From a virus (taxonomy: Duplodnaviria > Heunggongvirae > Uroviricota > Caudoviricetes), in IMG/VR virus record IMGVR_UViG_2713896899_000007, positions 7,041 through 71,040 of that record: a stretch of DNA of 64,000 nt; one strand, written 5' to 3'. Of the stretch, positions 17,103-51,979 are shown in pieces (the first letter of the stretch is position 1; each line of letters opens with the position of its first letter). The notes beneath the pieces are model-generated. The model did no database searches. It saw only the letters and a list, made by a program, of their open reading frames with translations, and was not told the origin of the DNA. A program made the translations under genes and the position numbers.

Positions 17103-18359
17103 CTATCTAGAACCACCAAGAATAACACGGTTTTTGACTGGATACCTACGATGTACTGGATAGCCCAATGCGTCTGCACTATGCTCAATGCCACCTGTCT
17201 TATCCATATCTCGTGTTCCAGGCTTGTAGATGACTTTTTCCAGTGAATCAATCAAATGCTTGCACTTCGGATCGATATACAACCGGATATCTCCAGATGC
17301 GGTCATCAGCATTCGGTTAACAGCATTAACACGATCCGCAATTGGCGGGTGCTTTTTCGAATAATCGACACGTAAGAATCCCTTCTCTTTGAAAATGTCG
17401 ACGTCAGACTCCCCGCGAGCATGTTGGCGATAAGCACCTGCCGGATCTGGAAATACCGTTATCTGTGATTTCCAGCGCCAGAAGCGTCTCTCAAGCTCAT
17501 CACAAACCTCTGCCGTGTTAGAGGAAAAGAGCACCAATTCATCAATTGCCCATAGCTCACCATTTGGCTGAGGTTGCAAAATTACTGAAGACATCGGGTC
17601 AATGTTGAAGTCCTGCCCTACCCATATAGGCAACCGAGGGTTGAACTGAAGCGGTTTTACATGCACGTTACGATCGAACGGGTAGTAAACGCGCCCGGAC
17701 ATGTTCTCAAAGCTCGCCAGGTACTCCTGAGCGAACGATTTCGGGTCCATATCGTTCTTAGCAGCTTCAATTTCCGCCGTAGGTACAAACGGAGAATCGG
17801 CAGTTACAAACTGCCAGCTCTTCCACTGTCCCTTTCTTTGCAGCTCTACGTTCTGGCCTATAGTCCACAGTTTGTGAAATTCCGAGAAGCCTTTTGGCGT
17901 ACCAATGATCAGTGCACCGCCGCGTGTCGATGAAAGAGTAGGTCGTAACACCTTGTACCAGGTGTCAGCCTTCATATCCTGAAATTCATCAAGCACTACA
18001 AAATGCAACGCTACGCCGCGCAGAGTGTCAGGCTTATCAGCACCTTTGAGGGCGATCTCCGAACCGTTCTTCAACACGATTGTCATCGTGGTGTCGTTCT
18101 TTTTCCTAACCCACTTACGAGGCAGAACTTCCTGTAGATCGTCCCACAAAATCTGGCGAGCCATCTGGTAAGTAGGAGCGACATACCAGACTCTTTGCTT
18201 TTTTTCCTTTGCCGCCGCACGAATAATAGTGGAGATCGACAACCGGGATTTTCCCCAGCGTCGACCAGCACAAACAACTTTAAATCGATGCGGAGACTGG
18301 AAGACTTTCATCTGTCCAGAATGCAGTTGCACAAGACTGAGCGAGGACGGGATTGCCAT
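17103..18359 (-). CDS. terminase large subunit
   Basis: Walker A GRRWGKS and Walker B HFVVLDEF, with a C-terminal nuclease-like half. ATGA overlap with the upstream gene. Confidence 0.9.
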   Translation of the reverse strand: MAIPSSLSLVQLHSGQMKVFQSPHRFKVVCAGRRWGKSRLSISTIIRAAAKEKKQRVWYVAPTYQMARQILWDDLQEVLPRKWVRKKNDTTMTIVLKNGSEIALKGADKPDTLRGVALHFVVLDEFQDMKADTWYKVLRPTLSSTRGGALIIGTPKGFSEFHKLWTIGQNVELQRKGQWKSWQFVTADSPFVPTAEIEAAKNDMDPKSFAQEYLASFENMSGRVYYPFDRNVHVKPLQFNPRLPIWVGQDFNIDPMSSVILQPQPNGELWAIDELVLFSSNTAEVCDELERRFWRWKSQITVFPDPAGAYRQHARGESDVDIFKEKGFLRVDYSKKHPPIADRVNAVNRMLMTASGDIRLYIDPKCKHLIDSLEKVIYKPGTRDMDKTGGIEHSADALGYPVHRRYPVKNRVILGGSR

Positions 18360-18991
18360 TATTCGTCCTCCCCTTCACTTCCATCATCTGTCGCATCAAA
18401 TTCGCTTAGAGCTTCTTCTTCCAACGTCTCAAGCAATTCGTCATCGATGATTTCAGGCTCGTCGTCTTCCTGACGTAATTTCGCCACCTGGGAAGGCGTA
18501 AGCTCACCAAATACCAGGTTCGGAATTTCTTCCTCGTCATTTTCAGCATGATCCATGCCCAATGCTTTGGACGAAACTTCAAAGCATTTTGCAAGGGTAT
18601 TACTGGCTCTCTGTAAGCTCTTGAGAGAATCCTCAATCGCCCCTAAAGGCTTACCATCACGTTTGGCCGTAGTGACTTCGACCATCACCATCTGCCCCAA
18701 CGCATACGCCCAGCCGTCATAACGTGTACGACGTTCTTCTATCTTTTCCGCACGGGCTTTAGCGCGAAGCTCTGCGTCAGATTTAAGAGACTCACGAACC
18801 ATCTTCCCAACAGAGTCCGCGCCTTTCTCTAATCCTCGCTTTTTGAAATGTCTGGAGAGTGTTTCACGACGAATGCCGTACTCTTCCTCCAGCTTTGAGA
18901 GTGTATATTCGCCTGACGTCCATTTGGCTTCAGCTTCGGCCCACTCCGCTGGTGTCAGGCGAGTTTTTACCTCGTCTTTTTCGACCGTCAT
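18359..18991 (-). CDS. terminase small subunit (HTH, acidic tail)
   Basis: N-terminal HTH-like YTLSKLEEEYGIRRETLSRHFKKRG and an acidic C-terminus. Translationally coupled to TerL. Confidence 0.65.
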   Translation of the reverse strand: MTVEKDEVKTRLTPAEWAEAEAKWTSGEYTLSKLEEEYGIRRETLSRHFKKRGLEKGADSVGKMVRESLKSDAELRAKARAEKIEERRTRYDGWAYALGQMVMVEVTTAKRDGKPLGAIEDSLKSLQRASNTLAKCFEVSSKALGMDHAENDEEEIPNLVFGELTPSQVAKLRQEDDEPEIIDDELLETLEEEALSEFDATDDGSEGEDE

Positions 18992-19086
18992 AGATCCCTC
19001 TAAAACACACAGAGCGCGTCCATGCGCTCTAAAACAACTTGTTTACTGCGTATGCTAACCAACTTGTTTTCTGGGGTGTTTAATTA

Positions 19087-19185
19087 GGTCTGGGCATGTC
19101 TTACTAAGCCTGCTTCCGTATATATTTAATAAGTTACTTATTATTTATATATACGGAAGCAGGTCTTTAAATAAGCTCCCAGACC
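19087..19185. repeat. nested inverted repeat (17-bp perfect arms inside 8-bp outer arms)
   Basis: cctgcttccgtatatat (19109-19125) pairs with atatatacggaagcagg (19147-19163). Outer arms are ggtctggg (19088-19095) and cccagacc (19178-19185). A second copy lies at 50158-50210. Confidence 0.85.
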
Positions 19186-19187
19186 GA

Positions 19188-19454
19188 TTACATCACCAGT
19201 AACTTCGCTTTGGCTCGACCTAAAGTGGTTAACCCAAGAGTCCGGCGGTGATAGCGATTGTCACTGCGTTGGCGCGTATGCCCTTTCTCCACCAGCCCCT
19301 TTTTTATCAGAGCGCGAATTGAGAACTGAATACTTTGCTTGGTTGTCTTGTACGGCAAAACTTCAAGCAATTCGTCCAGATCAAGTAGATGACCTCGCTC
19401 ATAACCGAGATTGAGCGTTTTGATGATGTCCTTTTGTTTATCGGTTAACGTCAT
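19188..19454 (-). CDS. small winged-helix-like DNA-binding protein
   Basis: 88 aa. TTKQSIQFSIRALIKKGLVEK resembles an HTH-wing. Last gene of the ParB operon. Confidence 0.5.
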   Translation of the reverse strand: MTLTDKQKDIIKTLNLGYERGHLLDLDELLEVLPYKTTKQSIQFSIRALIKKGLVEKGHTRQRSDNRYHRRTLGLTTLGRAKAKLLVM

Positions 19455-19463
19455 GGCAAATCC

Positions 19464-20354
19464 TTATGCCGGTAAAGCAATTTCTAACGGTTTATCCAAA
19501 GGTTGTTTGTCGAATGCCAGCAGTGGCAGCGTGTCAGGCAGTCGACGACCAAAGTCAGGGTTTCGATACACACCATACAACGGAGACGTAAAGCTCAGGT
19601 TGTGAATGTCCTTGAGCAGCTTCACAATGCTGGCCTCGTCCACCAGACTGTCGGCAATGTCCTGAATCGTCGTGCCACGATTCCGCCCAGCTTTTGCCAG
19701 GGAACTGTTCTTGTGGTAGTCCGCCACCAGATCACGCAGTGCACGGCGACGACGAGACTCGCTCATTGCGAACAACTCTTTGACGATCGCCTCGTTATCA
19801 CCCGGGTCAGAACGGAAATGGCGCTGGAATACACGCAGTGCACTTTCATAGCTCTTCGGTCGCTCAGGGCGGATGAACTTAAACCCCGCTTTCATGGCGA
19901 AGGGATTGTATTTGCTCATCGAGGACTGGATCTCAATGATTGGCCGGTCATGCATCCTGCTAACCAGGTTAATCATTCGATAAGAGACGCCTACGCCACG
20001 ATACTGAGTATCCACAACTGAGCGACTGATCACCGCAAAGTTGTTATTCACGTACCGACCCCAGTACTGGTTAGCCACGGTGGTATTAGTGGTTGGTTTC
20101 AACTTAGGAAACATGCGGTGGCGAGGTGCCAACAGTAGTTTCGGGTAAGCCATAACCACGACGCCCACCAGACGGTCATCAAGTTCGCAGCGATAGTAAG
20201 TTGGCGCGAAAGGTTTGCCGTCTGTTTTGTAGTGAAGCGACTTAAGAGCGTGCCAGTCCTCTACAGTTCCCTTTGTAACAGTCATTCGCTCCAGAAAGTC
20301 CAGATGACGCGGAAACTCTTCAGGGCGGTAGCGTTTAATGATGATGTCCGTCAT
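19464..20354 (-). CDS. GNAT-like acetyltransferase-domain protein
   Basis: VVDTQYRGVGVSYRMI fits the GNAT Q/RxxGxG/A acetyl-CoA loop. 296 aa. ATGA-coupled to the upstream ATPase. Confidence 0.5.
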   Translation of the reverse strand: MTDIIIKRYRPEEFPRHLDFLERMTVTKGTVEDWHALKSLHYKTDGKPFAPTYYRCELDDRLVGVVVMAYPKLLLAPRHRMFPKLKPTTNTTVANQYWGRYVNNNFAVISRSVVDTQYRGVGVSYRMINLVSRMHDRPIIEIQSSMSKYNPFAMKAGFKFIRPERPKSYESALRVFQRHFRSDPGDNEAIVKELFAMSESRRRRALRDLVADYHKNSSLAKAGRNRGTTIQDIADSLVDEASIVKLLKDIHNLSFTSPLYGVYRNPDFGRRLPDTLPLLAFDKQPLDKPLEIALPA

Positions 20355-21016
20355 GAATGGACCTCATCGTGACTACCATTGTGATATTCCACCTTCACGC
20401 GTTCTTTGTAGTGCTTGGTGATCTGCATATCCGGGCGCAGCGCGTTCTTCAGGTCTTCGTGAGTCGTCGCCACCATTACCGTCGCACCAACCTTTCGAGC
20501 GGCACGCTGGAGGTTAGACGCCACAACCTGAGCGGTTACACGGTCGAGAACAGCGCCGAACTCGTCAGCAGCCCACACTTTAGCGTCTGACTCAATCAGT
20601 TTGGCAATCTTGAGACGATATTTCTGGCCGTCTGACATTTCAGAAGGCTTGCGAACAAACAGATATGCATCGTTCAGACCAGCCATAGATAACAACCCAA
20701 GCGCATCACTGGTCGTTTTGCCCAACTGATCGATGACGTTAACCTCATTATCGAAGGTAAAATCATCGATGGAGGCTACAGACAGCCCTTCATCCTTCAT
20801 CTGTCGTTGCAACTCGCGCAGCACAACGGATTTGCCGGAACCGGATTGGCCGGTGATGTACACCACATCGCCCTGCTTCACTTCCAGCTCCAGATTGTCG
20901 TAAAGCGTCCACTCTTTTTCGTCCAGGCCAAGCCCGAACGACTCAGCGATTTCCAATGTGCGCGTGGTTTTATTTACGCGTGTCTGAAACGATACGTTGA
21001 TGATGTATTTGCTCAT
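20351..21016 (-). CDS. ABC-type ATPase (stand-alone nucleotide-binding domain)
   Basis: Walker A GQSGSGKS, signature MSDGQKYRL, Walker B VWAADEF. Confidence 0.8.
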   Translation of the reverse strand: MSKYIINVSFQTRVNKTTRTLEIAESFGLGLDEKEWTLYDNLELEVKQGDVVYITGQSGSGKSVVLRELQRQMKDEGLSVASIDDFTFDNEVNVIDQLGKTTSDALGLLSMAGLNDAYLFVRKPSEMSDGQKYRLKIAKLIESDAKVWAADEFGAVLDRVTAQVVASNLQRAARKVGATVMVATTHEDLKNALRPDMQITKHYKERVKVEYHNGSHDEVHS

Positions 21017-21681
21017 GCAGCCATCTCCCCGGAAGAGATCTTCTCCGCATATGCCACAAATGCGTCTACCCCGCTTTCTCCCGTCATTTCTTCCATGTGG
21101 GCAAGCAAATCACCAACAACAATGGCAGAGCCAGCAGGGAGCGTTTTAAAGCCCAATACGTCGACAACACGTACTTCTTCCGCTGCAACTTCACGACTGA
21201 TCTCGGTGTGTTCATCCTTCTGTCGTTTAGTTTCTTCGCCAAGATCGATAACTAGCGAGTCGGTGTCCATTTCTTCTGTCATACTGCCAACGAGAACATT
21301 CAACTCACGCTCTTCAAAGCCGAAAACCTCGATATCGTCCAGAACAAGCGACTCAAGCTCTTTCTGTAGCTTAATTGCATCGTAATCAATGCTGGCAAGT
21401 CGGTTATCTTCAAGGCGCTTCGCACGAACCTCGTCATCACTGAGATCATCGCGAACAATAACCGGTACGCGCTCAAGTCCAGCAAAAATTGCAGCCTCAC
21501 GGCGGCCGTGGCCAGTAATAATTACGTCGTTCTTATCGACCGTAATTGGCTGGTCAAATCCGCGCTTTTTAATGGCTGCGGCTAGATCTCGGATCTGCTG
21601 TTCATCATGCTTTTTGGCATTCATCTCATAGGGAATAAGATCTGCCGGGTCGCGATATACGATTTCAAACTTTTTGGTCAT
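21013..21681 (-). CDS. ParB-like nuclease (ParB/Srx) domain protein
   Basis: ITGHGRREAAIFAGLERVPVIV motif. ATG 21681 overlaps the upstream TAA (TAATG). Confidence 0.8.
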   Translation of the reverse strand: MTKKFEIVYRDPADLIPYEMNAKKHDEQQIRDLAAAIKKRGFDQPITVDKNDVIITGHGRREAAIFAGLERVPVIVRDDLSDDEVRAKRLEDNRLASIDYDAIKLQKELESLVLDDIEVFGFEERELNVLVGSMTEEMDTDSLVIDLGEETKRQKDEHTEISREVAAEEVRVVDVLGFKTLPAGSAIVVGDLLAHMEEMTGESGVDAFVAYAEKISSGEMAA

Positions 21682-22361
21682 TACATACGCTCCTTGTAGT
21701 AGTCGACCAGCCACACCAGAGCCTCACCAGCGTTCTCCATTTCATTACCGGTGTTAATAGCCTGCTCTTTGATGATGTTTTTTATGGTTTCTGCAACACG
21801 ATCTGACGCATCGAAAGTTACTTTGAAGCGCATGGTCTGATGTTCCGCACCCACACGTTCGGTTTTCTCCCGTTTGTCGGTATCGACAGGCTCATCACTA
21901 CCACGAGACAACGCCTCCAGTGCTTCAAGGTCGATTGCCGCCTCTTTTGCTAAAACCATCGAGATTTCGTCGTCATACGGGGCGATTTCAGACAGTTGAT
22001 AGTCAAGTTCTGACTGAATTTCTTCAATGAAGCGTTGCAATGCGATTTGGTCGTCTTCACCGTATCGCTCGTTGTCCACCAGTGACATCTGTTTTGCCAC
22101 GACATCGCTAATTTTGCCCACAGAAAGCACCGGAACCGTTGAAATTCCTTGCTCAATAGCAGCACGCCAGCGATGTTCGCCGCCGAGGATTTCAAAAAAT
22201 CCATCTTCAAGTTCACGAGCCAAAATTGGCTTAAAAAAGCCCAATTTTTCGATAGAACCTTTCAGTTTTTCAAAATTCTGCGCACCAACCGAATTGGTGT
22301 TCCAGGTATTCGGGCGAAGGTTGGCAACATCAACCTGCAAAATCGTGATTTTTACATCCAT
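21681..22361 (-). CDS. ParB-like nuclease (ParB/Srx) domain protein
   Basis: ILGGEHRWRAAIEQGISTVPVLSV motif. ATG 22361 is preferred over GTG 22379. Confidence 0.8.
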   Translation of the reverse strand: MDVKITILQVDVANLRPNTWNTNSVGAQNFEKLKGSIEKLGFFKPILARELEDGFFEILGGEHRWRAAIEQGISTVPVLSVGKISDVVAKQMSLVDNERYGEDDQIALQRFIEEIQSELDYQLSEIAPYDDEISMVLAKEAAIDLEALEALSRGSDEPVDTDKREKTERVGAEHQTMRFKVTFDASDRVAETIKNIIKEQAINTGNEMENAGEALVWLVDYYKERM

Positions 22362-22379
22362 TTTATTGCTACAATCCAC

Positions 22380-29287: not shown

Positions 29288-29438
29288 TTGTACGAATAAG
29301 GCGTCAAAGTGGAAAGTTGCGGTAGCCGGACGGGAACAGGTGGGTTTGTCGGTTGCCTGGAGGTAAGAGGTTGGTGTTTTTAGCCTGCGGGGAACAGGAT
29401 GGTCATTTAAGGCCACCAGCGTTAACTGGTGGCGTTTG

Positions 29439-30137
29439 TCATGCTGGAATCATATCTAATTGAAAAGATTCCATTATATATGTTGGTTCATCGATGTAGT
29501 CCTTCAGCCTATTGTCAAATGACTCAAGCGGATTGTATGGCGGATGATGCCGCTCCGAGTATTCATTTAAAAGATGCCCCATTATCAGTTCGATACCCAT
29601 CTCTACTCCTGAAACTCCGAACCATACATTGTGCGTTAGTTGCTGGGCGTCTGTATCCAGTACGCGAACGCCATCAACAAGATTTATTAGATTCCTGTGG
29701 TTTTCGTGTACTGTAACCTCTCCGCTGGTTAAGTCTATTTCAGCGAGAAAATATGGTCTTTTGCTTCCGTCGGACTTTTTGAAATGACCGTCATAAGCGA
29801 TAGCAAACCACGCTTTACTAAAGTCCTTGTTGGCGTAAGTGGTGCACATACAACTAGGATAATCATCAATGTTAAACCAATCAGGAAACGGATCATCTTT
29901 AGACGAGCCAGCAAAATCATCAGCTAGTTCGTAGCTAATGTCTGGGTTGTACTTGCTGACAAAATCATCTACATCCTCTACATCCTCAACACCTTTCCAA
30001 ACTTTACATCTCTCCGACCAAAAGAATCTCGCAATATCCGAAATGACTGGGAAACGTTTTTCAATTGAATTTATCAACTCTGCATGTTCTTTAAGAGATT
30101 TACGCTTGTTGATAAGCTTCTGAAGATGCGTACTCAT
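29439..30137 (-). CDS. hypothetical protein
   Basis: 232 aa ORF. GATAAT-type promoter at about 30165 with an upstream palindrome at 30188-30210. Confidence 0.6.
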   Translation of the reverse strand: MSTHLQKLINKRKSLKEHAELINSIEKRFPVISDIARFFWSERCKVWKGVEDVEDVDDFVSKYNPDISYELADDFAGSSKDDPFPDWFNIDDYPSCMCTTYANKDFSKAWFAIAYDGHFKKSDGSKRPYFLAEIDLTSGEVTVHENHRNLINLVDGVRVLDTDAQQLTHNVWFGVSGVEMGIELIMGHLLNEYSERHHPPYNPLESFDNRLKDYIDEPTYIMESFQLDMIPA

Positions 30138-30251
30138 TTTTAATTCCTCGTTTGTTTTTGATGTGATAATTATCGCAGTCAGATTAAGGCAGAAAACAAA
30201 TTGTTATCGGGCATAAGAAAATGGCGCGGTTTACGCGCCATTTAAAGAGGA

Positions 30252-30647
30252 TTAAGCGAATACGCTTTCAGGGATTAAGGTGTCAGCAGGAATGCCGGAG
30301 GTAATACGCAGACCGTACTGACCAATCCAGGTGGTGCTGGTGTTCAGGCTGGAGGTGAATACGGAATTAACCATATTCATCATGGTTTCAAACACCTCTT
30401 CATCAACCTGGCGGAAGTAGTTCTCGATTTTCAGCAGCAGCGGGTCAGTTGCATCGAGAATGGACTGGTATTGCGTCGCGTACTCGCCGCCGGAGGCATC
30501 ACCTTTACGCACGATCGTACTGGCCTGTACTTCGGCACCAGTTTCGGTGTTGTACGTAACAACGGTGATTTTTGCCACATTCTTACCTTCGGCGGTTTCA
30601 GAGGCATAGTAAACATCAACTGTCAGTTTTTCGCGTTTAACGGTCAT
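30252..30647 (-). CDS. hypothetical protein
   Basis: 131 aa ORF followed by hairpin aatggcgcg...cgcgccatt (30221-30243). Confidence 0.6.
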   Translation of the reverse strand: MTVKREKLTVDVYYASETAEGKNVAKITVVTYNTETGAEVQASTIVRKGDASGGEYATQYQSILDATDPLLLKIENYFRQVDEEVFETMMNMVNSVFTSSLNTSTTWIGQYGLRITSGIPADTLIPESVFA

Positions 30648-30690
30648 TTCACTCTCCGTAGTGTCTTGGTTATTTTTCTATTTTATAGCC

Positions 30691-30706
30691 GTAAGTATGT
30701 ACTTAC
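30691..30706. repeat. TAAGTA-type palindrome GTAAGTAtgTACTTAC
   Basis: Perfect 7-bp arms, upstream of the 30647 start. Confidence 0.6.
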
Positions 30707-30773
30707 AATACAAAAAAGCCCCGTAAGGATGGCGGGGCTGTCGTACTGTCGACTAATTACCACTTGCACATTA

Positions 30774-31085
30774 TCAGGCTATTGCCATCACTGATGCTCT
30801 CTGAATTTCTTGTTGGGCCACGCGGTTAACTTCCATCAAAGCCAGTTCGAGCTGATGTTCCGGCCACATTCTTTGAAATGCCACCCAGCCTTTTCCACGC
30901 TGGCGACGAACATTCATTACATAACGAGTAAAGGTGTTTTTATCGAAAGACACCGCTGTTTCACGGAACAGACGAATAGAGGTTCCATTGGCAACGATGT
31001 CCAGCAAAGTTAATTGAGCAACTAGCGCAGGCTTCTCTTTTCGCTTCTGGTCTTTGTCCAGACCAAGAACCAATGATTTTTTCAT
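30774..31085 (-). CDS. hypothetical protein
   Basis: ATG 31085 has a GGAG RBS. About 103 aa. Conserved promoter at 31095-31131. Confidence 0.55.
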   Translation of the reverse strand: MKKSLVLGLDKDQKRKEKPALVAQLTLLDIVANGTSIRLFRETAVSFDKNTFTRYVMNVRRQRGKGWVAFQRMWPEHQLELALMEVNRVAQQEIQRASVMAIA

Positions 31086-31094
31086 CACAACTCC

Positions 31095-31131
31095 GTAAAC
31101 AACTTGTTTTCTCAATGGCGTAAATAATACC
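31095..31131 (-). promoter_or_regulatory. conserved early promoter/leader element
   Basis: Minus strand reads GGTATTATTTACGCCATTGAGAAAACAAGTTGTTTAC. Confidence 0.55.
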
Positions 31132-31238
31132 AGTAAGAAAACGGCTACAAAGCATAATGATCAGGTGCATGATCGATATGCAGGTTCCTCCCTGCGGCTA
31201 TAGAGAAATTAAGCCAGCATTGCTGGCTTTGGTTGAGG

Positions 31239-33006: not shown

Positions 33007-33136
33007 AACTGTAACCTATTGATATTTAAGGATGTGATTGCAGGCATGGAAGGGGAGTAGTGGCGATCAACGGATTCTTATAGAAAAGAATCAAATTGTG
33101 ACCGCCATTATCAACGGTTTGAATATGTTTGCAGAT

Positions 33137-34363: not shown

Positions 34364-34504
34364 ACGCAGAAAACAAATTGTTTTAGGGGCTGAGTAAATC
34401 AGAAGGGATTGCGTCTATATGAAAATGCCCAGCAATACGCTGGGCATTGTGAAGAATGGTTGTTTAGTTACTTAACTTGGTGGCCTGGTTTAGCACCAGC
34501 ATCC
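34364..34504 (-). repeat. phage palindrome + metG terminator + metG 3' end (partner of 33496-33636)
   Basis: See the alignment for the partner repeat. The terminator stem is aatgcccagc/gctgggcatt (34422-34446). Confidence 0.9.
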
Positions 34505-36501
34505 GGGCTTAACAGGAAGATATCTTTCCCGCCGGGGCCAGCAGCCATCACCATGCCTTCGGAGATACCGAAGCGCATTTTACGCGGAGCCAGGTTAGCC
34601 ACCATAATTGTGTGACGACCAATCAGTGCCTGTGGGTCTGGATAAGCAGAACGGATGCCTGAGAAGACATTACGCTTTTCACCACCGAGATCCAGTGTCA
34701 GGCGCAACAGTTTGTCAGAACCTTCAACAAACTCCGCGTTTTCAATCAGCGCCACACGCAGGTCAACTTTGGCGAAGTCGTCAAAGGTGATGGTTTCCTG
34801 AATCGGGTCGTCAGCCAGTGGGCCAGTAACTGGCGCGGCAGTAGCTTTCACTTCTTCTTTGGATGCTTCCACCAGTGCTTCCACCTGTTTCATATCGATA
34901 CGGTTATACAGTGCCTTGAACGGATTCACTTTATGGCCCAGCAGCGGTTGCTGGATACCATCCCAGGTCAGTTCTGTATTCAGGAATGCTTCTGCACGTT
35001 CAGTCAGTTTCGGCAGTACCGGTTTCAGATACGTCATCAGCACGCGGAACAGGTTAATGCCCATAGAGCAAATCGCCTGCAGATCTGCATCGCGACCTTC
35101 CTGCTTCGCCACCACCCACGGAGCCTGTTCATCGACATAGCGGTTAGCCAGGTCAGCCAATGCCATGATTTCACGGATAGCTTTACCAAATTCGCGGCTT
35201 TCCCATGCTTCGCCAATCACTTCAGCGGCATCAGTAAAGGTTTTGTACAGTTGCGGGTCAGCCAGTTCGCTTGCCAGCACGCCGTCAAAACGCTTGTTGA
35301 TAAAGCCTGCATTACGGGAGGCCAGGTTAACCACTTTGTTAACAATATCGGCATTCACTCGCTGAACGAAATCCTCCAGGTTGAGATCGATATCATCAAT
35401 GCGCGAAGAGAGTTTCGCAGTGTAGTAGTAACGCAGGCTGTCAGCGTCAAAATGATTCAGCCAGGTGCTGGCTTTAATAAAGGTGCCGCGAGACTTGGAC
35501 ATCTTCGCACCGTTCACCGTCACATAGCCATGAACAAACAGGTTGGTCGGCTTGCGGAAGTTGCTGCCTTCCAGCATGGCAGGCCAGAACAGACTGTGGA
35601 AGTAAACGATATCTTTACCGATGAAGTGGTACAGCTCGGCGGTGGAGTCTTTCTTCCAGTATTCATCGAAGCTGGTGGTATCGCCGCGCTTGTCGCACAG
35701 ATTCTTGAAGGAACCCATGTAGCCAATCGGTGCGTCCAGCCAGACGTAGAAATATTTACCCGGCGCGTTCGGAATTTCAAAACCGAAGTAAGGTGCGTCG
35801 CGGGAGATATCCCACTGTTGCAGACCAGATTCAAACCACTCCTGCATTTTGTTTGCCACCTGCTCCTGCAACGCACCGCTGCGGGTCCATGCCTGCAACA
35901 TTTCGCTGAAAGAGGGCAGATCAAAGAAGAAGTGTTCAGAATCACGCATTACCGGGGTAGCACCAGAAACCACCGATTTCGGCTCGATCAGTTCAGTCGG
36001 GCTGTAGGTCGCGCCACAAACTTCACAGTTATCGCCGTATTGATCTGGCGCTTTACATTTCGGGCAGGTGCCTTTCACAAAACGATCCGGCAGGAACATG
36101 CCTTTTTCCGGGTCGTACAACTGAGAGATAGTGCGGTTTTTAATAAAACCGTTCTCTTTCAGGCGAGTATAAATAAGCTCAGACAGCTGGCGGTTCTCTT
36201 CGCTGTGCGTCGAGTGATAGTTGTCATAGCTGATGTTAAAGCCTGCGAAATCAGTCTGGTGTTCCTGACTCATTTCGCCAATCATCTGCTCCGGTGTGAT
36301 ACCAAGTTGCTGTGCTTTCAGCATGATCGGCGTACCGTGGGCATCGTCGGCACAGATGAAATTAACCTCGTGGCCGCGCATTCGCTGGTAACGAACCCAG
36401 ACATCAGCCTGGATGTGCTCCAGCATATGGCCGAGGTGGATTGAGCCGTTAGCGTACGGCAGCGCGCACGTCACCAGAATTTTCTTCGCGACTTGGGTCA
36501 T
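34468..36501 (-). CDS. metG: methionine--tRNA ligase
   Basis: 677 codons from ATG 36501 ([25 protein letters not shown]...KMSKS...). Near-identical to E. coli MetG as I recall it. The 43-codon upstream extension in the track is spurious. Confidence 0.97.
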
Positions 36502-36658
36502 AGTAGGCATTACTTCTTTGTAGTGAAAAGGGGCTTGATAGTAACAAAATGGCCTTATGTCTGCCATGTGATAACAGCATTTCTCATAAATGATTAAATG
36601 TCGTAGCTGGAGTACACTACAAGGCGACAATTGCGCAAATTAAAATAAAGGAGACGGG

Positions 36659-37759
36659 ATGAGCGAGTCCAAATCGCCGGATGCCCTGAGAGCAATGGTA
36701 GCCGGTACGCTGGCTAATTTTCAGCACCCAACCCTGAAACACAACCTGACTACGCTTAAAGCGTTACACCATGTTGCGTTGATGGATGACACACTGCATG
36801 TCGAACTAATCATGCCTTTCGTGTGGAATAAGCCTTTTGAAGACCTGAAAGAGCAATGTAGTGGTGATCTGCTCCGTATCACTGGCGCAAAGGCTATTGA
36901 CTGGAAGCTGTCGTACAACATTGCCACGCTTAAGCGCGTCAAAAACCAACCAGGCATTAATGGTGTTAAGAATATTATCGCCGTAAGCTCAGGCAAGGGC
37001 GGTGTAGGCAAATCGTCCACAGCAGTAAACTTGGCACTGGCGTTGGCTGCTGAAGGTGCGAAAGTTGGTATTTTGGATGCCGATATCTACGGGCCATCAA
37101 TACCAACCATGCTGGGCGCGGAAAACCAACGTCCAACCTCACCGGACGGTACTCACATGGCACCTATCATGTCTCATGGCCTGGCAACCAATTCAATTGG
37201 CTATCTGGTCACCGACGACAATGCAATGGTGTGGCGTGGACCGATGGCCAGCAAGGCGCTGATGCAGATGTTGCAGGAAACACTGTGGCCTGATCTGGAC
37301 TATCTCGTTCTCGATATGCCGCCGGGCACTGGTGATATTCAGTTGACGCTGGCGCAGAACATTCCTGTAACTGGTGCGGTTGTGGTAACTACGCCGCAAG
37401 ACATCGCGCTGATCGATGCGAAGAAAGGCATTGTGATGTTCGAAAAAGTCGAAGTGCCAGTACTGGGTATCGTTGAAAACATGAGTGTGCATATTTGCAG
37501 TAACTGCGGTCATCACGAGCCAATTTTTGGCACCGGTGGCGCACAGAAACTGGCCGAGAAATACAACACGCAGTTGTTAGGCCAAATGCCACTTCATATC
37601 TCTCTTCGTGAAGATCTGGATAACGGAACACCAACCGTTATTAGTCGTCCAGATAGTGAATTTACGGCTATTTATCGTGACCTCGCAGATCGCGTTGCTG
37701 CCCAAATGTATTGGCAAGGTGAAGTAATACCTGGCGAAATCGCATTCCGCGCAGTGTGA
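36659..37759 (+). CDS. apbC: Fe-S cluster carrier ATPase Mrp/ApbC
   Basis: AVSSGKGGVGKSS P-loop and a CSNCGHH motif. Divergent from metG as in the E. coli chromosome. Confidence 0.95.
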   Translation: MSESKSPDALRAMVAGTLANFQHPTLKHNLTTLKALHHVALMDDTLHVELIMPFVWNKPFEDLKEQCSGDLLRITGAKAIDWKLSYNIATLKRVKNQPGINGVKNIIAVSSGKGGVGKSSTAVNLALALAAEGAKVGILDADIYGPSIPTMLGAENQRPTSPDGTHMAPIMSHGLATNSIGYLVTDDNAMVWRGPMASKALMQMLQETLWPDLDYLVLDMPPGTGDIQLTLAQNIPVTGAVVVTTPQDIALIDAKKGIVMFEKVEVPVLGIVENMSVHICSNCGHHEPIFGTGGAQKLAEKYNTQLLGQMPLHISLREDLDNGTPTVISRPDSEFTAIYRDLADRVAAQMYWQGEVIPGEIAFRAV

Positions 37760-37796: not shown

Positions 37797-38186
37797 CTAC
37801 ATCACAGGACAATCATCAAACTCGCCACTTCTTGCGTCGTTGATAATGTGAGTGATCACACCAAACACGGCATTGCTGCCCGTGCATCCATCGTCATCCT
37901 TTGGCAATGCTTCCTTCTTACCAGTTCTTAAATCCTCCAGATGCTGACGTGGATACTTCCGGTATCTTTTTACGCGATATTCCCCATCCAGAGCGCATAC
38001 AAGCAGAGAACCATCAACCGGGGTAAGTGAGGAATCGACCACCAGCAATGCGCCCTGCAATATTCCCTCACGATGATGGCTGTCAGCCGCTCTCATGAAG
38101 TAGGTCGCTGAAGGATGTCTAATTATCTGCTGATCAAGAGAAATACGGCTCTCAGCATAATCCGCCGCAGGAGAAGGGAAGCCCAT
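37797..38186 (-). CDS. humD: UmuD'-like S24 peptidase-fold protein lacking the cleavable N-terminus (phage P1 HumD-like)
   Basis: Starts MGFPSPAADY, which aligns to the residues just after the UmuD Cys24-Gly25 cleavage site. The Ser (ADSH) and Lys (VKRY) positions are retained. A LexA box lies upstream. Confidence 0.8.
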   Translation of the reverse strand: MGFPSPAADYAESRISLDQQIIRHPSATYFMRAADSHHREGILQGALLVVDSSLTPVDGSLLVCALDGEYRVKRYRKYPRQHLEDLRTGKKEALPKDDDGCTGSNAVFGVITHIINDARSGEFDDCPVM

Positions 38187-44593: not shown

Positions 44594-46279
44594 TCATTTA
44601 ACGCGTTTGAAAACGTATACGCTGACTGTGATCCCTGTGTCTTCAAACTCGTTGGTAAACGACTTCCCTCTGGCATAAACGTAATTATCCATCGTCATCC
44701 AGTCCAGTATTGGCGCAGTGCCCGGCAATACTGCTACAAGACGCCCGCCGACTTTCAGATGCCCCAGCGCAGCCATCGTGTGCTCTCTATGACGACCAAG
44801 CGAGTACGGCGGGTTCATAACGATTTTGTCGAACTGATAACCTGCGTTGTCCTCAGACCACTTTATGAAGTCGCAGCAAATCGTGTTCGTATACCCTTTT
44901 CCACGCAGGATATCAGCGAAGAGAGGTGCGATTTCTATGCAGGTAACATCTTCCAGATCGGCGTTAATATAGGCCAGAAGATCCCCACGTCCGGCTTGAG
45001 GCTCCAGCAGCTTCTCACCAGGCTTCAATTCAGTGGCTCTGGCAACGTACTCAGCAATCAAGCGTGGGGTAGGGTAGAACTGGTGTGATTTTGTATCCGG
45101 TATTAAACCGGTAGCCACAATCGTATTTAGCGTATGGCCGATGTCATACGGGAACTGCCAGTGCTTTTTCTCCTGCACGCCGCCAATGAAGCTCAGTGTG
45201 CGCTCAAGCTCTTCCACCTGCGACTTCTGGAGAGCTGAATCAGAGAAGTACCATACGCCTTTGTCTTTGCTCAATCGCCCGTCACGAAGCGCAGTGCGAA
45301 CCGGCACGGAGATCGTCTTCTGGATTAACCCGAACTGCTTTGGTGCCCGTGTTTTTGGCGCAGTGCGGCATGGCGCGGGGATTGCAGCAGGCATACTGTA
45401 AGCCAGCACCTCATTCAACTTCCAGGCCACGTCAGGATGTATTTCAAAGTGAACGTTGCCGTTCTTGAACATCTTCACGCGCATCAGATTTCCATCGACG
45501 TTCATCCAGTCACCGGTCTGGCAGTCGTTTGCCCGATACGCAGCTGATAGCACCTCAGCAGTGCGGTTGATGGTAATAAATTCTTTGTGCGCGAAGAAAT
45601 GAAGCAAGACACGCAGATCGTCGATGTAGTCCTCTTTGCGATAGTTCACGCTAACGCTGTCCCGCCAGAAATCAGAAATGCAGTCAGCGATTATCAGCCG
45701 CTCGCTGAAACCGTTTGTCTTATTCGTCTTGTGCGCAGGACTCAGCGCCTTAAACAAGCCATACACGCGCTCAGAGAGATATTTGTGCCTGTCATTCAGC
45801 AAATTAAGCATCGTGGGTATGACCGTTTCTGCTTTGAACTCCGGTACACCAACGAACTCTTTAACCTTCATCTGGTAGCCGGTTCTGTCAGTTTTGATGA
45901 CTTCCTGTTTGCCCTCTATAAACTGCTCGCGCCACTCATCTCGACGGGAAGCTGGCATGATCAGCAAAACGTTAGTCATGTCCGTGACCTTCCTCCAGTA
46001 CTCGGCCCAAATATTCTGTTTCACCCATTCCAGATCGACTTTATCCAACCAACCTCGATTTAAACGCGAGCGATCTTCATCTGGTCGATGGTTTAGTCGC
46101 AGCAGGCGATTAATCATGTTGTGGCGTTCGTCGCCATAAACGAAGTCGTGTACCTGATACATGAAGGCGATCTCTTTCTCGCACTCGGCCACGATTTCGT
46201 GGATGACATTCATTTCCTGACGATAGTCGATAGCCGTGTTTGAGCTGGCATCGTCGATGATGGAAAGGGCTGTATTCAT
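44594..46279 (-). CDS. N6-adenine-type DNA methyltransferase with large N-terminal domain (DUF4942-like)
   Basis: Motif I LEPQAGRG and motif IV NPPY in the C-terminal third. Confidence 0.7.
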   Translation of the reverse strand: MNTALSIIDDASSNTAIDYRQEMNVIHEIVAECEKEIAFMYQVHDFVYGDERHNMINRLLRLNHRPDEDRSRLNRGWLDKVDLEWVKQNIWAEYWRKVTDMTNVLLIMPASRRDEWREQFIEGKQEVIKTDRTGYQMKVKEFVGVPEFKAETVIPTMLNLLNDRHKYLSERVYGLFKALSPAHKTNKTNGFSERLIIADCISDFWRDSVSVNYRKEDYIDDLRVLLHFFAHKEFITINRTAEVLSAAYRANDCQTGDWMNVDGNLMRVKMFKNGNVHFEIHPDVAWKLNEVLAYSMPAAIPAPCRTAPKTRAPKQFGLIQKTISVPVRTALRDGRLSKDKGVWYFSDSALQKSQVEELERTLSFIGGVQEKKHWQFPYDIGHTLNTIVATGLIPDTKSHQFYPTPRLIAEYVARATELKPGEKLLEPQAGRGDLLAYINADLEDVTCIEIAPLFADILRGKGYTNTICCDFIKWSEDNAGYQFDKIVMNPPYSLGRHREHTMAALGHLKVGGRLVAVLPGTAPILDWMTMDNYVYARGKSFTNEFEDTGITVSVYVFKRVK

Positions 46280-46289
46280 AATTACACCA

Positions 46290-46325
46290 TTAAATAATTT
46301 GTTTTCTTATTGGTGTAATTATCGC
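46290..46325 (-). promoter_or_regulatory. conserved early promoter/leader element
   Basis: Minus strand reads GCGATAATTACACCAATAAGAAAACAAATTATTTAA. Confidence 0.55.
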
Positions 46326-49817: not shown

Positions 49818-50048
49818 TCATTTCGATTGATTATTTTCTCGACCATGTAGTTGAACATTCAAGGCAAACACCTCGTTGATCAACTCACCTAAAAGCTGTT
49901 CAACAAGTTCGCGATGCTCCCCAAGATGCAAGCACTTAATTGCCCATTCGTACAAGTTGAAAGCCTGCTCGCGATCTTTCATCATTTCACGAGCCTTAGC
50001 CAGAAAATCGCTCTCTACGAGCGCAACAACATTGGTCGGGTATGACAT
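49818..50048 (-). CDS. hypothetical protein
   Basis: 76 aa ORF. Confidence 0.5.
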   Translation of the reverse strand: MSYPTNVVALVESDFLAKAREMMKDREQAFNLYEWAIKCLHLGEHRELVEQLLGELINEVFALNVQLHGRENNQSK

Positions 50049-50157
50049 GTTAGTTTTCCTTAAAGTGGTTCATAAAATCGATTTTAAAGCGTCTGAGAAG
50101 GGGTTCTAGTGGATTCTGTAGTGGTGTTCAGGTCTGGGAGTCTCTGATACAAAACAG

Positions 50158-50210
50158 CCTGCTTCCGTATATTAATAATTAATATGTAGTTATTTATATA
50201 CAGAAGCAGG
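50158..50210. repeat. second copy of the cctgcttccgtatat inverted repeat
   Basis: 15-bp arms with 1 mismatch. ggtctggga lies upstream at 50131, as in the first copy at 19087. Confidence 0.8.
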
Positions 50211-50233: not shown

Positions 50234-50827
50234 CTAAGCAGCCTTCTTTGATGGTCTTTTTTTCCTGACCACATTCGCAGGATCATACCCTCCCAGACTT
50301 TTCATTACGTCCAAAGGGATCTTGCTTATAGAGTGCCCAGCGTCCTGACAGAATCCTCGAAAAACAACGAGCATACTGCCACCGGGGTTGATGTTTACTT
50401 CTACCTGACCCAAATTGACGTCAGGCTCGACAAACGCTACGCGGCCACCAGACAGAATAATCGTCTCATTCGCATACTCTGTTGCACGCTCATACCACTT
50501 TGTATCGAGGGATTGAGGAATTAGCATCACTGTTGTAACTCCGCGAGCCTGCTCACGTATAGCAGCATCAATCCAGGGGGAGATTTTGGAGTAGGGTGGA
50601 TTGAGGAAGGCAATTGTACCTGGCTGTCCCCATTCAGATTTCAAAGCATCGCGCTCAACGCCTATGAAATTAGGCAGCTTTGCATTGTCCTTGTTGCAGG
50701 CAACGTCAACATCAAATGTCACTCCAAGATAACGTTGAATGGCAGAAAACAGCCAATCAGGTGTTCTCCAGAGGTCACGAAGAGAGTTGTCGCGCTTTCG
50801 CTGTTTGATTTTTTCGGCTGCAATCAT
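50234..50827 (-). CDS. phage-type DNA N6-adenine methyltransferase
   Basis: WRTPDWLF and FLNPPYS motifs. 197 aa. Confidence 0.85.
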   Translation of the reverse strand: MIAAEKIKQRKRDNSLRDLWRTPDWLFSAIQRYLGVTFDVDVACNKDNAKLPNFIGVERDALKSEWGQPGTIAFLNPPYSKISPWIDAAIREQARGVTTVMLIPQSLDTKWYERATEYANETIILSGGRVAFVEPDVNLGQVEVNINPGGSMLVVFRGFCQDAGHSISKIPLDVMKSLGGYDPANVVRKKRPSKKAA

Positions 50828-51819: not shown

Positions 51820-51979
51820 GTAAGTCTCCTTCTGTTTGGTTACATTTGCGTTTCGATGGCTACATTTTGACTAAACCTATCAGGCGGAAAAGTATTAAAT
51901 ACAGGCAGGAAATGATTGAAAGGCGACTGTTCTTTAAAAGAAAGCCTACTTTAAACTCTCTTTAAAGTAGGCTTTTGCT

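What the first reader, a model, noticed from the sequence alone, without database searches (positions are those of the whole stretch)
19087..19185. Large nested inverted repeat upstream of terS, duplicated 31 kb away
There are 17-bp perfect arms (19109-19125 and 19147-19163) with a 21-nt AT loop containing TAAGTTACTTA. They are nested inside ggtctggg/cccagacc outer arms.

A second copy with one arm mismatch lies at 50158-50210, again preceded by ggtctggga (50131). Neither copy has a U-tract, so they are not ordinary terminators.

The first sits exactly where a pac site or late-operon control region is expected.
Basis: seen in the sequence. Interest (0 to 1): 0.5.

Follow-up and report, generated by a model that had tools for sequence, protein, structure and literature searches.

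The report
Repeated terminator-like hairpins in a phage-plasmid
The palindrome upstream of the terminase genes is one of three near-identical hairpins that sit just after stop codons at operon boundaries of an SSU5-type phage-plasmid; they most likely act as transcription stop or insulator signals, so this is an ordinary kind of regulatory feature and probably not a DNA-packaging site.

Summary
The inverted repeats are real and far beyond chance. The window is an SSU5-like phage-plasmid, nearly identical to E. coli plasmid p009_B. That complete genome carries three copies of the core palindrome: A (outside the window, downstream of the parA-side genes and upstream of the DnaB-helicase module), B (upstream of terS) and C (after the Dam-like methylase). 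All genes here are on the minus strand. Each hairpin starts 8-24 nt after a stop codon and ends 109-118 nt before the next start codon. The three loci are syntenic in about 800 enterobacterial plasmids.

My best reading is a family of intrinsic terminator or insulator hairpins kept alike by copying between loci. Copy B, the reported one, is the least terminator-like: it has an extended stem and a poor U-tract. A pac/cos role for B is unsupported but not excluded. The likelier control elements next to terS are two copies of a genome-wide dyad (AAACAAnTTGTTT) and a conserved 5'UTR hairpin.

The parts
19109..19163 (-). Core palindrome, copy B: 17-bp perfect arms (CCTGCTTCCGTATATAT) and a 21-nt A/T centre that can itself partly pair.
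   Evidence: The RNA fold of 19065-19205 gives -58.3 kcal/mol on the sense strand, z = -10.5.
19075..19197 (-). Extended imperfect palindrome around copy B. It includes the outer arms ggtctggg (19087-19094) and cccagacc (19178-19185). The upstream arm starts 2 nt after the stop codon of the 88-aa ORF.
   Evidence: 51-nt arms, 71% complementary; the GGG/CCC outer pairs are kept in 14-16 of 17 sequences, and the two pairs next to the core covary (G-C 7, A-U 6, U-A 1).
19032..19069 (-). Two copies of the genome-wide dyad AAACAAnTTGTTT (19032-19044 and 19057-19069) between palindrome B and terS. Probably an operator or promoter element.
   Evidence: about 22 sites in the complete genome (44 strand matches against 0.68 expected). 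The dyad is conserved at this position in Klebsiella relatives.
19010..19031 (-). Second hairpin in the terS 5'UTR (GAGCGC-atggac-GCGCTC) followed by TGTGTGTTTTAG, then the Shine-Dalgarno sequence and the terS ATG. Looks like a terminator or attenuator.
   Evidence: 8 pairs, 5 of them G-C, U-rich tail. Compensatory changes in the divergent Klebsiella lineage, GGCGTC/GATGCC.
18359..18991 (-). Small terminase gene by position (phrog_867, 'DNA binding domain'). First gene downstream of copy B, 117 nt after the core.
19188..19454 (-). 88-aa ORF (phrog_900, annotated as a DNA-binding protein). Its stop codon lies 24 nt before core B.
50158..50210 (-). Core palindrome, copy C. In the sense direction it reads CCTGCTTCTG...CGGAAGCAGG, giving one U.G wobble in the RNA.
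   Evidence: The fold gives -38.8 kcal/mol, z = -5.3.
50146..50157 (-). U-rich tail directly after hairpin C on the coding strand (CTGTTTTGTATC).
   Evidence: 13 of 17 unique class-C sequences have at least 5 T in the 9 nt after the hairpin on the sense strand, against 0 of 17 on the antisense strand.
50104..50139 (-). Box shared with copy B, downstream of the hairpin in the sense direction (TCCCAGACCTGAACACCACTACAGAA).
50234..50827 (-). Dam-like N6-adenine methyltransferase gene. Its stop codon lies 23 nt before core C.
49818..50048 (-). 76-aa ORF (phrog_5343). First gene downstream of copy C, 109 nt after the core.

Best explanation
The palindromes are a small family of transcribed hairpins that mark operon boundaries in SSU5-type phage-plasmids.

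Mechanism:
- The genes run on the minus strand. Each hairpin forms in the nascent RNA just after an upstream stop codon.
- At copies A and C the G+C-rich base of the stem is followed directly by a U-tract. RNA polymerase therefore terminates there as at any intrinsic, Rho-independent terminator.
- This insulates the next module from read-through: the replication helicase operon at A and the RNase H block at C.
- Copy B, the reported one, uses the same hairpin with an additional outer stem but only a weak U-tract in the E. coli lineage. I infer that it is a leaky or auxiliary barrier, or an RNA 3'-end or RNase III hairpin, placed ahead of the packaging and structural operon. The second hairpin-plus-U-run at 19010-19031 and the dyad operators provide the main control of terS.
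- The near-identity of the three copies is best explained by copying or gene conversion between loci, so that the cassettes evolve together.

Shown: anatomy, synteny, U-tracts, the expression drop at A, and replacement by unrelated terminators in another lineage.
Inferred: termination at C, the role of B, and gene conversion.
For: 1. Position. The hairpins begin 8, 24 and 23 nt after stop codons and end 118, 117 and 109 nt before the next start codon at A, B and C.
2. U-tract on the coding strand. At least 5 T in the 9 nt after the hairpin in 24 of 25 unique class-A and 13 of 17 class-C sequences, although the sequence further downstream differs between lineages.
3. Strand asymmetry of arm mismatches. 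On the sense strand A has 71 U.G cells and 0 C.A, and B has 10 and 0. Six instances carry the fully compensated U-A pair. The class-A core is more stable on the sense strand in 30 of 31 unique sequences.
4. In vivo data. In the near-identical phage Cyrano, the co-directional parA operon (CYRAN_28-30) reads 50, 89 and 55 in LB and about 1,100-1,400 in condition B6, on a scale that includes a pseudocount of 5. The next gene, CYRAN_31, reads about 6, the floor. The 193-bp gap holds copy A followed by TCTTTTAAAG.
5. Functional replacement. In Klebsiella plasmid NZ_CP032196.1 the 5' arm is lost at A and C, and each remnant is followed by a different canonical terminator: CAGGCGC..GCGCCTtattctttgtg (-29.7 kcal/mol) and CAGGCAC..GTGCCTtaatctctgttttt (-18.6 kcal/mol). 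At B the drifted hairpin gains a long U-run.
6. Covariation of the two pairs flanking the conserved core at B.
7. Copying between loci. Identical 55-mers occur at A and B in some genomes, and the three K-lineage loci share a derived 13-mer.
8. Established background. In E. coli, inverted repeats just downstream of stop codons are mostly intrinsic terminators (PMC6060812).
Against: - Copy B has no adequate U-tract on the sense strand in 0 of 17 unique sequences, so for the reported copy termination is only an inference. The RNA-seq drop across B is 2-5 fold, on near-background counts.
- The arm sequence is conserved more strongly (87-96%) than the flanks (75-84%) across genera. A plain terminator does not need that.
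- In the divergent Klebsiella lineage the 3' arm is identical at all three loci, even though A and C can no longer pair. That fits recognition of the sequence at least as well as recognition of a structure.
- At C, one clade has C.A mismatches on the sense strand (9 cells), and the core is not more stable on the sense strand.
- pKPHS1 carries two uncompensated mismatches at B.
- The RNA-seq is per gene, so it cannot place the 3' end at the hairpin.
- My pattern search fixed the arm sequence, so arm conservation in that set is by construction.
- Copy A is read from the closest complete relative, not from the window itself.
Confidence: 0.6

Rival explanations
1. Copy B is not a terminator. It is an RNA processing or stability element: the long, almost perfect double-stranded stem in the polycistronic minus-strand RNA is cut by RNase III or protects an upstream 3' end. 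This would uncouple the stability or translation of the 88-aa gene and terS messages, as RNase III sites do in phage T7.
For: B has 17 perfect pairs plus an upper stem and an outer stem, about 45 pairs over 130 nt at -58 kcal/mol. It has no sense-strand U-tract. The extended fold is more stable on the sense strand in 18 of 21 unique sequences. Pairs next to the core covary.
Against: There are no cleavage data. The same core at A and C carries a U-tract and behaves as a terminator. In Salmonella-type relatives the outer stem of B is followed by TTTT, and in the divergent Klebsiella lineage B has a long U-run, both of which suggest termination.
Confidence: 0.15
2. The conserved arms are a double-stranded DNA site for a sequence-specific protein of the phage-plasmid. 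Candidates are dispersed centromere sites for the ParA/RHH partition system (as in N15), or a site for a regulator acting at three operon starts.
For: Sequence-level conservation of the arms across genera. The same derived 3' arm at all three loci of the divergent lineage, although A and C cannot pair. Copy A lies downstream of the partition genes: directly after the parA operon in Cyrano and about 1.2 kb past parA in p009_B. The copies are dispersed at roughly 31-47 kb intervals.
Against: The spacer between the arms varies in length (core 51-57 nt) and in sequence, which does not suit a rigid dimer. Yersinia pMT1 keeps copy B, but the RHH protein is not found among Yersinia plasmids. The RHH beta-strand is almost unchanged (SLEDE against SIEDE) between lineages whose arms differ. 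A separate dyad, with about 22 copies, is the better operator candidate and also sits at the parA promoter. The U-tract and U.G pattern have no explanation at the DNA level.
Confidence: 0.12
3. Copy B is the packaging initiation site (cos or pac). Terminase would cut at or near the dyad centre, guided by flanking sites next to terS, with a geometry like lambda cosN-cosB-Nu1.
For: B lies 117 nt upstream of terS. The SSU5 record, from virion DNA, begins in the centre of the palindrome. The repeated dyad boxes between B and terS could act as terS binding sites.
Against: There are three copies of the core per genome, two of them far from the terminase genes. Contig ends occur near A (6), B (5) and C (2) alike, which indicates assembly breaks. 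Cyrano's record starts 1 nt from SSU5's, probably by orientation on SSU5; its paper gives no termini data. Other phage isolates of the group do not start at B. B's arms drift and a U-run appears in a lineage with a conserved terminase. The dyad boxes are genome-wide, not specific to terS. TerL typing was uninformative.
Confidence: 0.08
4. The palindromes exist mainly as recombination linkers or as a DNA structure: cruciforms or hairpins that act as replication origins, or as substrates of the phage SbcCD-like nuclease.
For: Copy A is the exact junction between a hypervariable region (15 unrelated upstream families) and a conserved module. The A/T-rich centre would favour cruciform extrusion. 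The element encodes SbcC/SbcD-like proteins, a recombinase and its own replisome.
Against: B and C are flanked by conserved sequence on both sides. No origin features such as iterons or DnaA boxes were seen. Function appears to be retained where the palindrome has decayed. A linker role is compatible with, and secondary to, a terminator role.
Confidence: 0.05

Closest known systems
Rho-independent (intrinsic) transcription terminators of enterobacteria and their phages
   Same: A hairpin with a G+C-rich base directly after a stop codon, followed by a U-tract on the coding strand (copies A and C). Expression stops across copy A.
   Different: The stem is unusually long (14-17 bp plus an A/U upper stem, 51-57 nt in all). 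The same sequence is reused at three loci and conserved across genera. Copy B lacks the U-tract and has an extra outer stem.
PeSL composite terminator/promoter cassettes of T4-like phages (PMC2839356, PMC4122927)
   Same: Near-identical stem-loop cassettes repeated in one genome at gene-block boundaries. At locus A the cassette is the exact junction of a hypervariable region. A conserved promoter- or operator-like box follows the hairpin.
   Different: Only three copies, at fixed syntenic loci. No recognisable sigma-70 promoter after the hairpin. No sequence similarity. Shuffling is seen at one locus only.
Dispersed centromere inverted repeats of the linear phage-plasmid N15 (Sop system; from my own knowledge, not checked in a paper here)
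   Same: A phage-plasmid with a few palindromic sites scattered over the genome, one near the late genes and one near the partition genes.
   Different: N15 sites are short palindromes of about 16 bp bound by SopB. Here the arms are 14-17 bp and separated by a spacer of variable length. They carry U-tracts on the coding strand and are retained in pMT1, where the small ParA/RHH system was not found.
Lambda-type cos region (cosN-cosB upstream of Nu1; from my own knowledge)
   Same: A partly symmetric site a little over 100 bp upstream of the small terminase gene, with repeated boxes in between.
   Different: Three copies per genome. No data on DNA ends. The boxes in between are a genome-wide motif.
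RNase III processing hairpins of phage T7 mRNAs (from my own knowledge)
   Same: Long intercistronic hairpins in polycistronic phage RNA, with similarity between sites.
   Different: No evidence of cleavage. Two of the three copies look like terminators.

Membership tests
Intrinsic (Rho-independent) terminator | Stable hairpin with a G+C-rich stem base in the nascent RNA, co-oriented with the upstream gene and close to its stop codon | tested here: met
   All three copies start 8-24 nt after a stop codon. Mean core folding energy is -21 to -27 kcal/mol.
Intrinsic (Rho-independent) terminator | U-rich tract immediately 3' of the hairpin on the transcribed strand | tested here: inconclusive
   Met for C in the window (CTGTTTTG) and for A (TCTTTT): 13 of 17 and 24 of 25 unique sequences. 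Not met for the reported copy B (CTTAGTAAG; 0 of 17), except in the divergent Klebsiella lineage.
Intrinsic (Rho-independent) terminator | Transcription actually ends there | tested here: inconclusive
   Per-gene RNA-seq of Cyrano shows roughly a 200-fold or larger drop across A and a 2-5 fold drop across B near background. Both sides of C are at background. No 3'-end mapping exists.
PeSL-like composite terminator/promoter cassette | Several near-identical stem-loop cassettes in one genome | tested here: met
   Three copies. Identical 55-mers occur at A and B in some genomes.
PeSL-like composite terminator/promoter cassette | A promoter directly joined to the stem-loop | tested here: inconclusive
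   No sigma-70-type promoter was found on the coding strand. A conserved box (CCCAGACC..ACACCnCCAGAA, the flank of the genome-wide dyad) follows the hairpin.
PeSL-like composite terminator/promoter cassette | Cassettes lie at the junctions of variable gene blocks | tested here: inconclusive
   Met at A (15 upstream families against one downstream family). Not met at B or C.
cos/pac packaging site | A single recognition site next to the terminase genes | tested here: not met
   The core occurs three times per genome and only B is near terS.
cos/pac packaging site | Virion DNA ends or the packaging series start at the site | not testable with these tools
   The only hint is that the SSU5 record starts in the centre of B. 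Contig ends occur near all three copies.
Dispersed plasmid centromere (N15-type) | Presence of the site tracks the cognate partition proteins | tested here: inconclusive
   The RHH protein is in 797 plasmids with nearly the same host distribution as the palindrome, but both are lineage traits. Yersinia pMT1 keeps copy B while the protein has no Yersinia hits.
Dispersed plasmid centromere (N15-type) | The centromere-binding protein binds the repeat | not testable with these tools
   No binding data are available.
MITE / ERIC / Correia-type repeat element | Many copies at variable sites, with presence/absence polymorphism and target duplications | tested here: not met
   One to three copies at three syntenic loci. 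None on any of 5,426 E. coli chromosomes. No flanking duplications were seen.
Any Rfam RNA family | Match at the family's gathering score | tested here: not met
   No hits at gathering thresholds in the window. Only generic microRNA-hairpin matches far below threshold appear.

The most novel reading that the evidence does not exclude
The conserved arms (CCTGCTTCYGTATA / TATACRGAAGCAGG) are the recognition element of a dedicated trans-acting factor of SSU5-type phage-plasmids. One possibility is a hairpin-specific antiterminator. Another is a DNA-binding protein that opens three insulated lytic modules (replication, packaging and structure, nucleotide metabolism) together at the switch from plasmid to phage life. 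In that case the three hairpins would be a coordinated regulatory gate, not passive terminators. The identical derived 3' arm at all three loci of a divergent lineage, kept even without pairing, is the observation that keeps this open.
Probability: 0.15. Interest if true: 0.55.

Novelty: new member of a known kind. Interest (0 to 1): 0.3.

Why it matters
SSU5-type phage-plasmids are common in clinical Enterobacteriaceae; this element was found in about 5% of complete E. coli genomes. Their gene regulation is essentially unstudied. If this reading is right, it gives a first transcription-unit map:
- Three conserved insulator hairpins separate the plasmid-maintenance genes from the lytic modules.
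- A genome-wide dyad probably marks the repressor-controlled promoters.

It also warns annotators that these palindromes break short-read assemblies and can be mistaken for genome ends. The practical value is modest, and the kind of element is ordinary.

Tried and rejected
- Rfam, at gathering and permissive thresholds: nothing real.
- The simple terminator scan missed the palindromes because it allows only loops of 3-8 nt, but it did find the second hairpin at 19010-19031.
- Sigma-70 promoter scan: nothing on the coding strand next to any copy.
- Terminase typing to infer the packaging mode: Pfam gives only generic Terminase_6N/3 hits. The nearest relatives outside the group are mostly 25-28% identical (one Vibrio phage at 41%) and mix T5-like, Jersey-like and other phages, so this was uninformative.
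- Literature searches for SSU5 termini or packaging found nothing. The 2026 phage-plasmid preprint is not held.
- MITE or ERIC-like mobile repeat: rejected, because the sites are syntenic and absent from chromosomes.
- The hits in 'unrelated' plasmids turned out to be SSU5-derived fragments or relatives. The flanks of L006 and L007 match locus A, and L005 shares the replicon type and the par protein.
- A possible fourth half-site at record 36729 is within the chance expectation.
- By eye I found no IHF, DnaA-box or GATC motifs in the core.
- Pfam gave no domains for the small flanking proteins.
- I first took Cyrano's 'septum site-determining protein' (CYRAN_99) to be ParA. It is the apbC gene of a captured chromosomal segment; the real ParA is CYRAN_28.

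Full report
**Observation.** The sequence is as described. Perfect 17-bp arms lie at 19109-19125 and 19147-19163, with a 21-nt A/T centre. They are nested in an imperfect palindrome spanning 19075-19197 that includes ggtctggg (19087-19094) and cccagacc (19178-19185). A second copy lies at 50158-50210 with one arm mismatch. The 15-nt arm occurs 6 times at up to 3 mismatches, against 1.29 expected, and 0 of 100 shuffles reach that number. Only three perfect inverted repeats of 12 bp or more exist in the window. The 9-mer AGGTCTGGG is not enriched in itself.

**Context.** The window is an SSU5-like phage-plasmid. It is 98-99% identical to Escherichia phages CMS-2020a, PhiR41_1 and Cyrano, and about 80% identical to Salmonella phage SSU5 and Klebsiella relatives. 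Over the regions I checked it matches E. coli plasmid p009_B (NZ_CP048306.1, 110 kb, circular), apart from a 16-bp offset and some differences near the window end. Genes around both copies are on the minus strand: capsid, scaffold, portal, terL and terS (18359-18991). Upstream of terS come an 88-aa ORF (19188-19454), an ATPase/acetyltransferase-like gene, an ABC-type ATPase and two ParB_N proteins. Copy C lies between a Dam-like methylase (50234-50827) and a 76-aa ORF (49818-50048).

**A three-copy family.** The complete relative carries three copies of the core:
- A at record 30638-30691, outside the window. In p009_B two further genes separate it from the ParA-type partition genes upstream. 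It lies upstream of a 246-aa gene and the DnaB-like helicase.
- B, upstream of terS.
- C, after the methylase.

The copies are spaced 32, 31 and 47 kb apart. In the direction of transcription each core begins 8, 24 and 23 nt after a stop codon and ends 118, 117 and 109 nt before the next start codon. The core is found in about 800 PLSDB plasmids from Klebsiella, Escherichia, Enterobacter, Yersinia pMT1, Salmonella pHCM2-type, Citrobacter and Cronobacter, with one to four copies each. Core identity is 87-96% where the flanks are 75-84% identical. It occurs in 259 of 5,426 complete E. coli genomes, always on plasmids and never on a chromosome. A pattern scan of IMG/VR and GTDB gave 132 instances. 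By their flanks they fall into the same three syntenic loci: A 58, B 37 and C 30. The few 'unrelated' plasmids with the core carry SSU5-derived segments.

**Evidence for an RNA hairpin that terminates transcription.**
- In the sense orientation the arms read 5'-CCTG(C/T)TTC(T/C)GTATA ... TATAC(G/A)GAA(G/A)CAGG-3'.
- Mismatched arm positions are U.G wobbles on the sense strand and never C.A at A (71 against 0 cells) and at B (10 against 0). At C there are 21 U.G and 9 C.A cells, the latter from one clade. Six instances carry the compensated U-A pair. Many of these cells are inherited, not independent, so I treat this as suggestive only.
- The nine bases after the hairpin on the sense strand contain at least 5 T in 24 of 25 unique class-A and 13 of 17 class-C sequences (TCTTTT..., CTGTTTTG, CTTTTT). 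The sequence beyond that differs between lineages. For class B the count is 0 of 17.
Copy B is followed by CTTAGTAAGAC.
- RNAalifold on 17 B-locus sequences shows almost no variation in the core, but the two pairs just outside it covary (G-C 7, A-U 6, U-A 1).
- Both strands fold strongly, as any palindrome must. The class-A core is more stable on the sense strand in 30 of 31 unique sequences, while B and C show no clear preference.

**In vivo data.** The LF82 study provides per-gene RNA-seq for Cyrano (PMC9928086, S1 Table). The values include a pseudocount of 5. The co-directional operon CYRAN_28 (ParA), 29 and 30 reads 50, 89 and 55 in LB, and log2 10.4 and 10.15 for CYRAN_30 in condition B6. 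The next gene, CYRAN_31, reads 6.2 in LB and log2 2.56 and 2.65 in B6, which is the floor. The 193-bp gap between them contains copy A (CCTGCTTCTGTATA...TATACAGAAGCAGG followed by TCTTTTAAAG), 25 nt after the CYRAN_30 stop codon. I saw no other obvious hairpin there. Across B, CYRAN_123 reads log2 5.5-6.6 in two conditions against terS at 3.7-5.6 and terL at 3.2-4.1. That is a 2-5 fold drop on near-background counts. Both sides of C are at background.

**A divergent lineage as a natural experiment.** Klebsiella plasmid NZ_CP032196.1 is syntenic, with about 71% identity around terS.
- At B the arms have drifted (CCTGATTCTGTAT / ATATAGGAGCCAGG). They still pair through sense-strand G.U wobbles and are followed by CTCTCTTTTTAGTGTTTTTTGTGTGTTTTTT.
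- At A and C the 5' arm is gone, and each remnant is followed by a different canonical terminator hairpin with a U-tract.
- A stop signal is therefore kept at these loci even where the palindrome is not.
- However, the derived 3' arm (ATAGGAGCCAGGC) is identical at all three loci. In some E. coli-type genomes the 55-nt cores at A and B are identical.
- I read this as copying or gene conversion between loci, but it is also the main argument for a sequence-specific partner.

**Copy B and the terS control region.** In the direction of transcription, the interval between B and terS contains the following:
- CCCAGACC, the partner of the outer arm.
- Two copies of the dyad AAACAAnTTGTTT (19032-19044 and 19057-19069).
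- A second hairpin (19010-19031) followed by TGTGTGTTTTAG, the Shine-Dalgarno sequence and the ATG.

The second hairpin is kept with compensatory changes in the divergent lineage, where it has no U-run while hairpin B has one. In either arrangement, one hairpin-plus-U-run precedes terS. The dyad occurs at about 22 sites in the genome, against 0.68 matches expected in shuffles. It occurs about 24 times in the Klebsiella plasmid. Nearly all sites are intergenic, and they include the parA and helicase upstream regions. The box ACACCnCCAGAA seen after the hairpins is the left flank of this motif. I think the dyads, not the large palindrome, are the operator or promoter elements of the late-operon control region.

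**Module junction.** At locus A the 200 nt upstream of the hairpin fall into 15 unrelated families among 53 instances, while the 200 nt downstream form one family (55 of 57). B and C are conserved on both sides. This resembles the PeSL terminator/promoter cassettes of T4-like phages, which mark points of modular exchange (PMC4122927), but only at one locus.

**Packaging site.** SSU5's GenBank record begins in the centre of palindrome B, and Cyrano's begins 1 nt away. The Cyrano paper reports no termini data, and its authors compared the genome with SSU5, so I suspect, but cannot show, that its start follows SSU5's. Contig or locus ends lie within 300 nt of copies of all three classes (A 6, B 5, C 2), as expected if assemblers break at a three-copy palindrome. 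Other phage isolates of the group do not start at B. Terminase typing was uninformative, and I found no literature on SSU5 ends. A pac/cos role for B is therefore unsupported but not excluded.

**Centromere or other DNA site.** The partner of the small ParA is an RHH-type protein (motif FTRSDVIRAAI). It is found in 797 plasmids with the same host spread as the palindrome, except for Yersinia, whose pMT1 keeps only copy B. The variable spacer between the arms (core 51-57 nt) and the coding-strand U-tracts fit a hairpin better than a dimer site, but binding cannot be tested here.

**Verdict.** The family is best read as conserved terminator or insulator hairpins at three operon boundaries, which is a known kind of element. 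The reported copy B is its least typical member and its exact role is unresolved. In E. coli, inverted repeats just after stop codons are mostly intrinsic terminators (PMC6060812). I found no earlier description of these repeats in the literature I could search.

Noticed in passing
window 19032, 19057, 29254, 30194, 31097, 31582, 32778, 33456, 33507, 34377, 38315, 43400, 46308, 47022, 47751, 57971 (13-nt sites; + strand start positions): The dyad AAACAAnTTGTTT, with an extended flank AT(A/T)A(A/C)CACnn(A/T/C)AGA, occurs about 22 times in the complete genome (0.68 matches expected by chance) and about 24 times in a divergent Klebsiella relative. Almost all sites are intergenic and upstream of genes, including parA and the helicase. 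It looks like the operator of a master repressor or a phage-specific promoter element.
   Followed up: partly
window 19010-19031 (minus strand): Hairpin GAGCGC..GCGCTC followed by TGTGTGTTTTAG, just ahead of the terS ribosome-binding site. It is conserved in Salmonella and Klebsiella relatives, with four compensatory pair changes in the most divergent lineage. It may be an attenuator or a hairpin that stabilises the 5' end of the mRNA.
   Followed up: partly
window 51941-51975 (minus strand): A perfect 15-bp stem with a 5-nt loop (AAAGCCTACTTTAAA gagag TTTAAAGTAGGCTTT), 5 nt after the stop codon of the 3'-5' exonuclease gene and followed by CTTTTAAAG. This is a canonical intrinsic terminator of unrelated sequence, with a tail like that of copy A.
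   Followed up: partly
window 46278-46322: A 12-bp perfect inverted repeat (ATAATTACACCA / TGGTGTAATTAT) whose 21-nt loop contains one of the dyad sites. It lies just upstream of the DUF4942 gene start.
   Followed up: no
window about 34468-37759: The chromosomal housekeeping genes metG (methionyl-tRNA synthetase, minus strand) and apbC/mrp (36659-37759, plus strand) sit inside the phage-plasmid, next to an S24 LexA-like peptidase gene (37797-38186). In Cyrano, apbC is expressed in the lysogen.
   Followed up: no
L008 about 33045-33075 (p009_B, minus strand); L141 about 20520-20570 and L140 about 20405-20445 (Klebsiella plasmid): A second family of repeated terminator hairpins (AATCAGGCGAC..GTCGCCTTTTTT; ATCAGGCGC..GCGCCTT; TTCAGGCAC..GTGCCTT), with compensatory changes between copies. 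Reuse of terminator cassettes at several loci seems to be a general habit of these genomes.
   Followed up: partly
window 19188-22379 (minus strand): A five-gene block directly upstream of terS: two ParB_N-domain proteins, an ABC-type ATPase, an ATPase/acetyltransferase-like protein and an 88-aa DNA-binding protein. It is conserved across the group and its function is unknown. In Cyrano the 88-aa gene is induced on its own in macrophage conditions, while the four genes upstream of it stay at background.
   Followed up: no
L143 108-1935 (Cyrano 29307-31134): The gene after parA is annotated as a RelE/ParE toxin in Cyrano, but it carries an RHH-type motif (FTRSDVIRAAI) and sits where a centromere-binding protein is expected. 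The annotation is probably wrong.
   Followed up: partly
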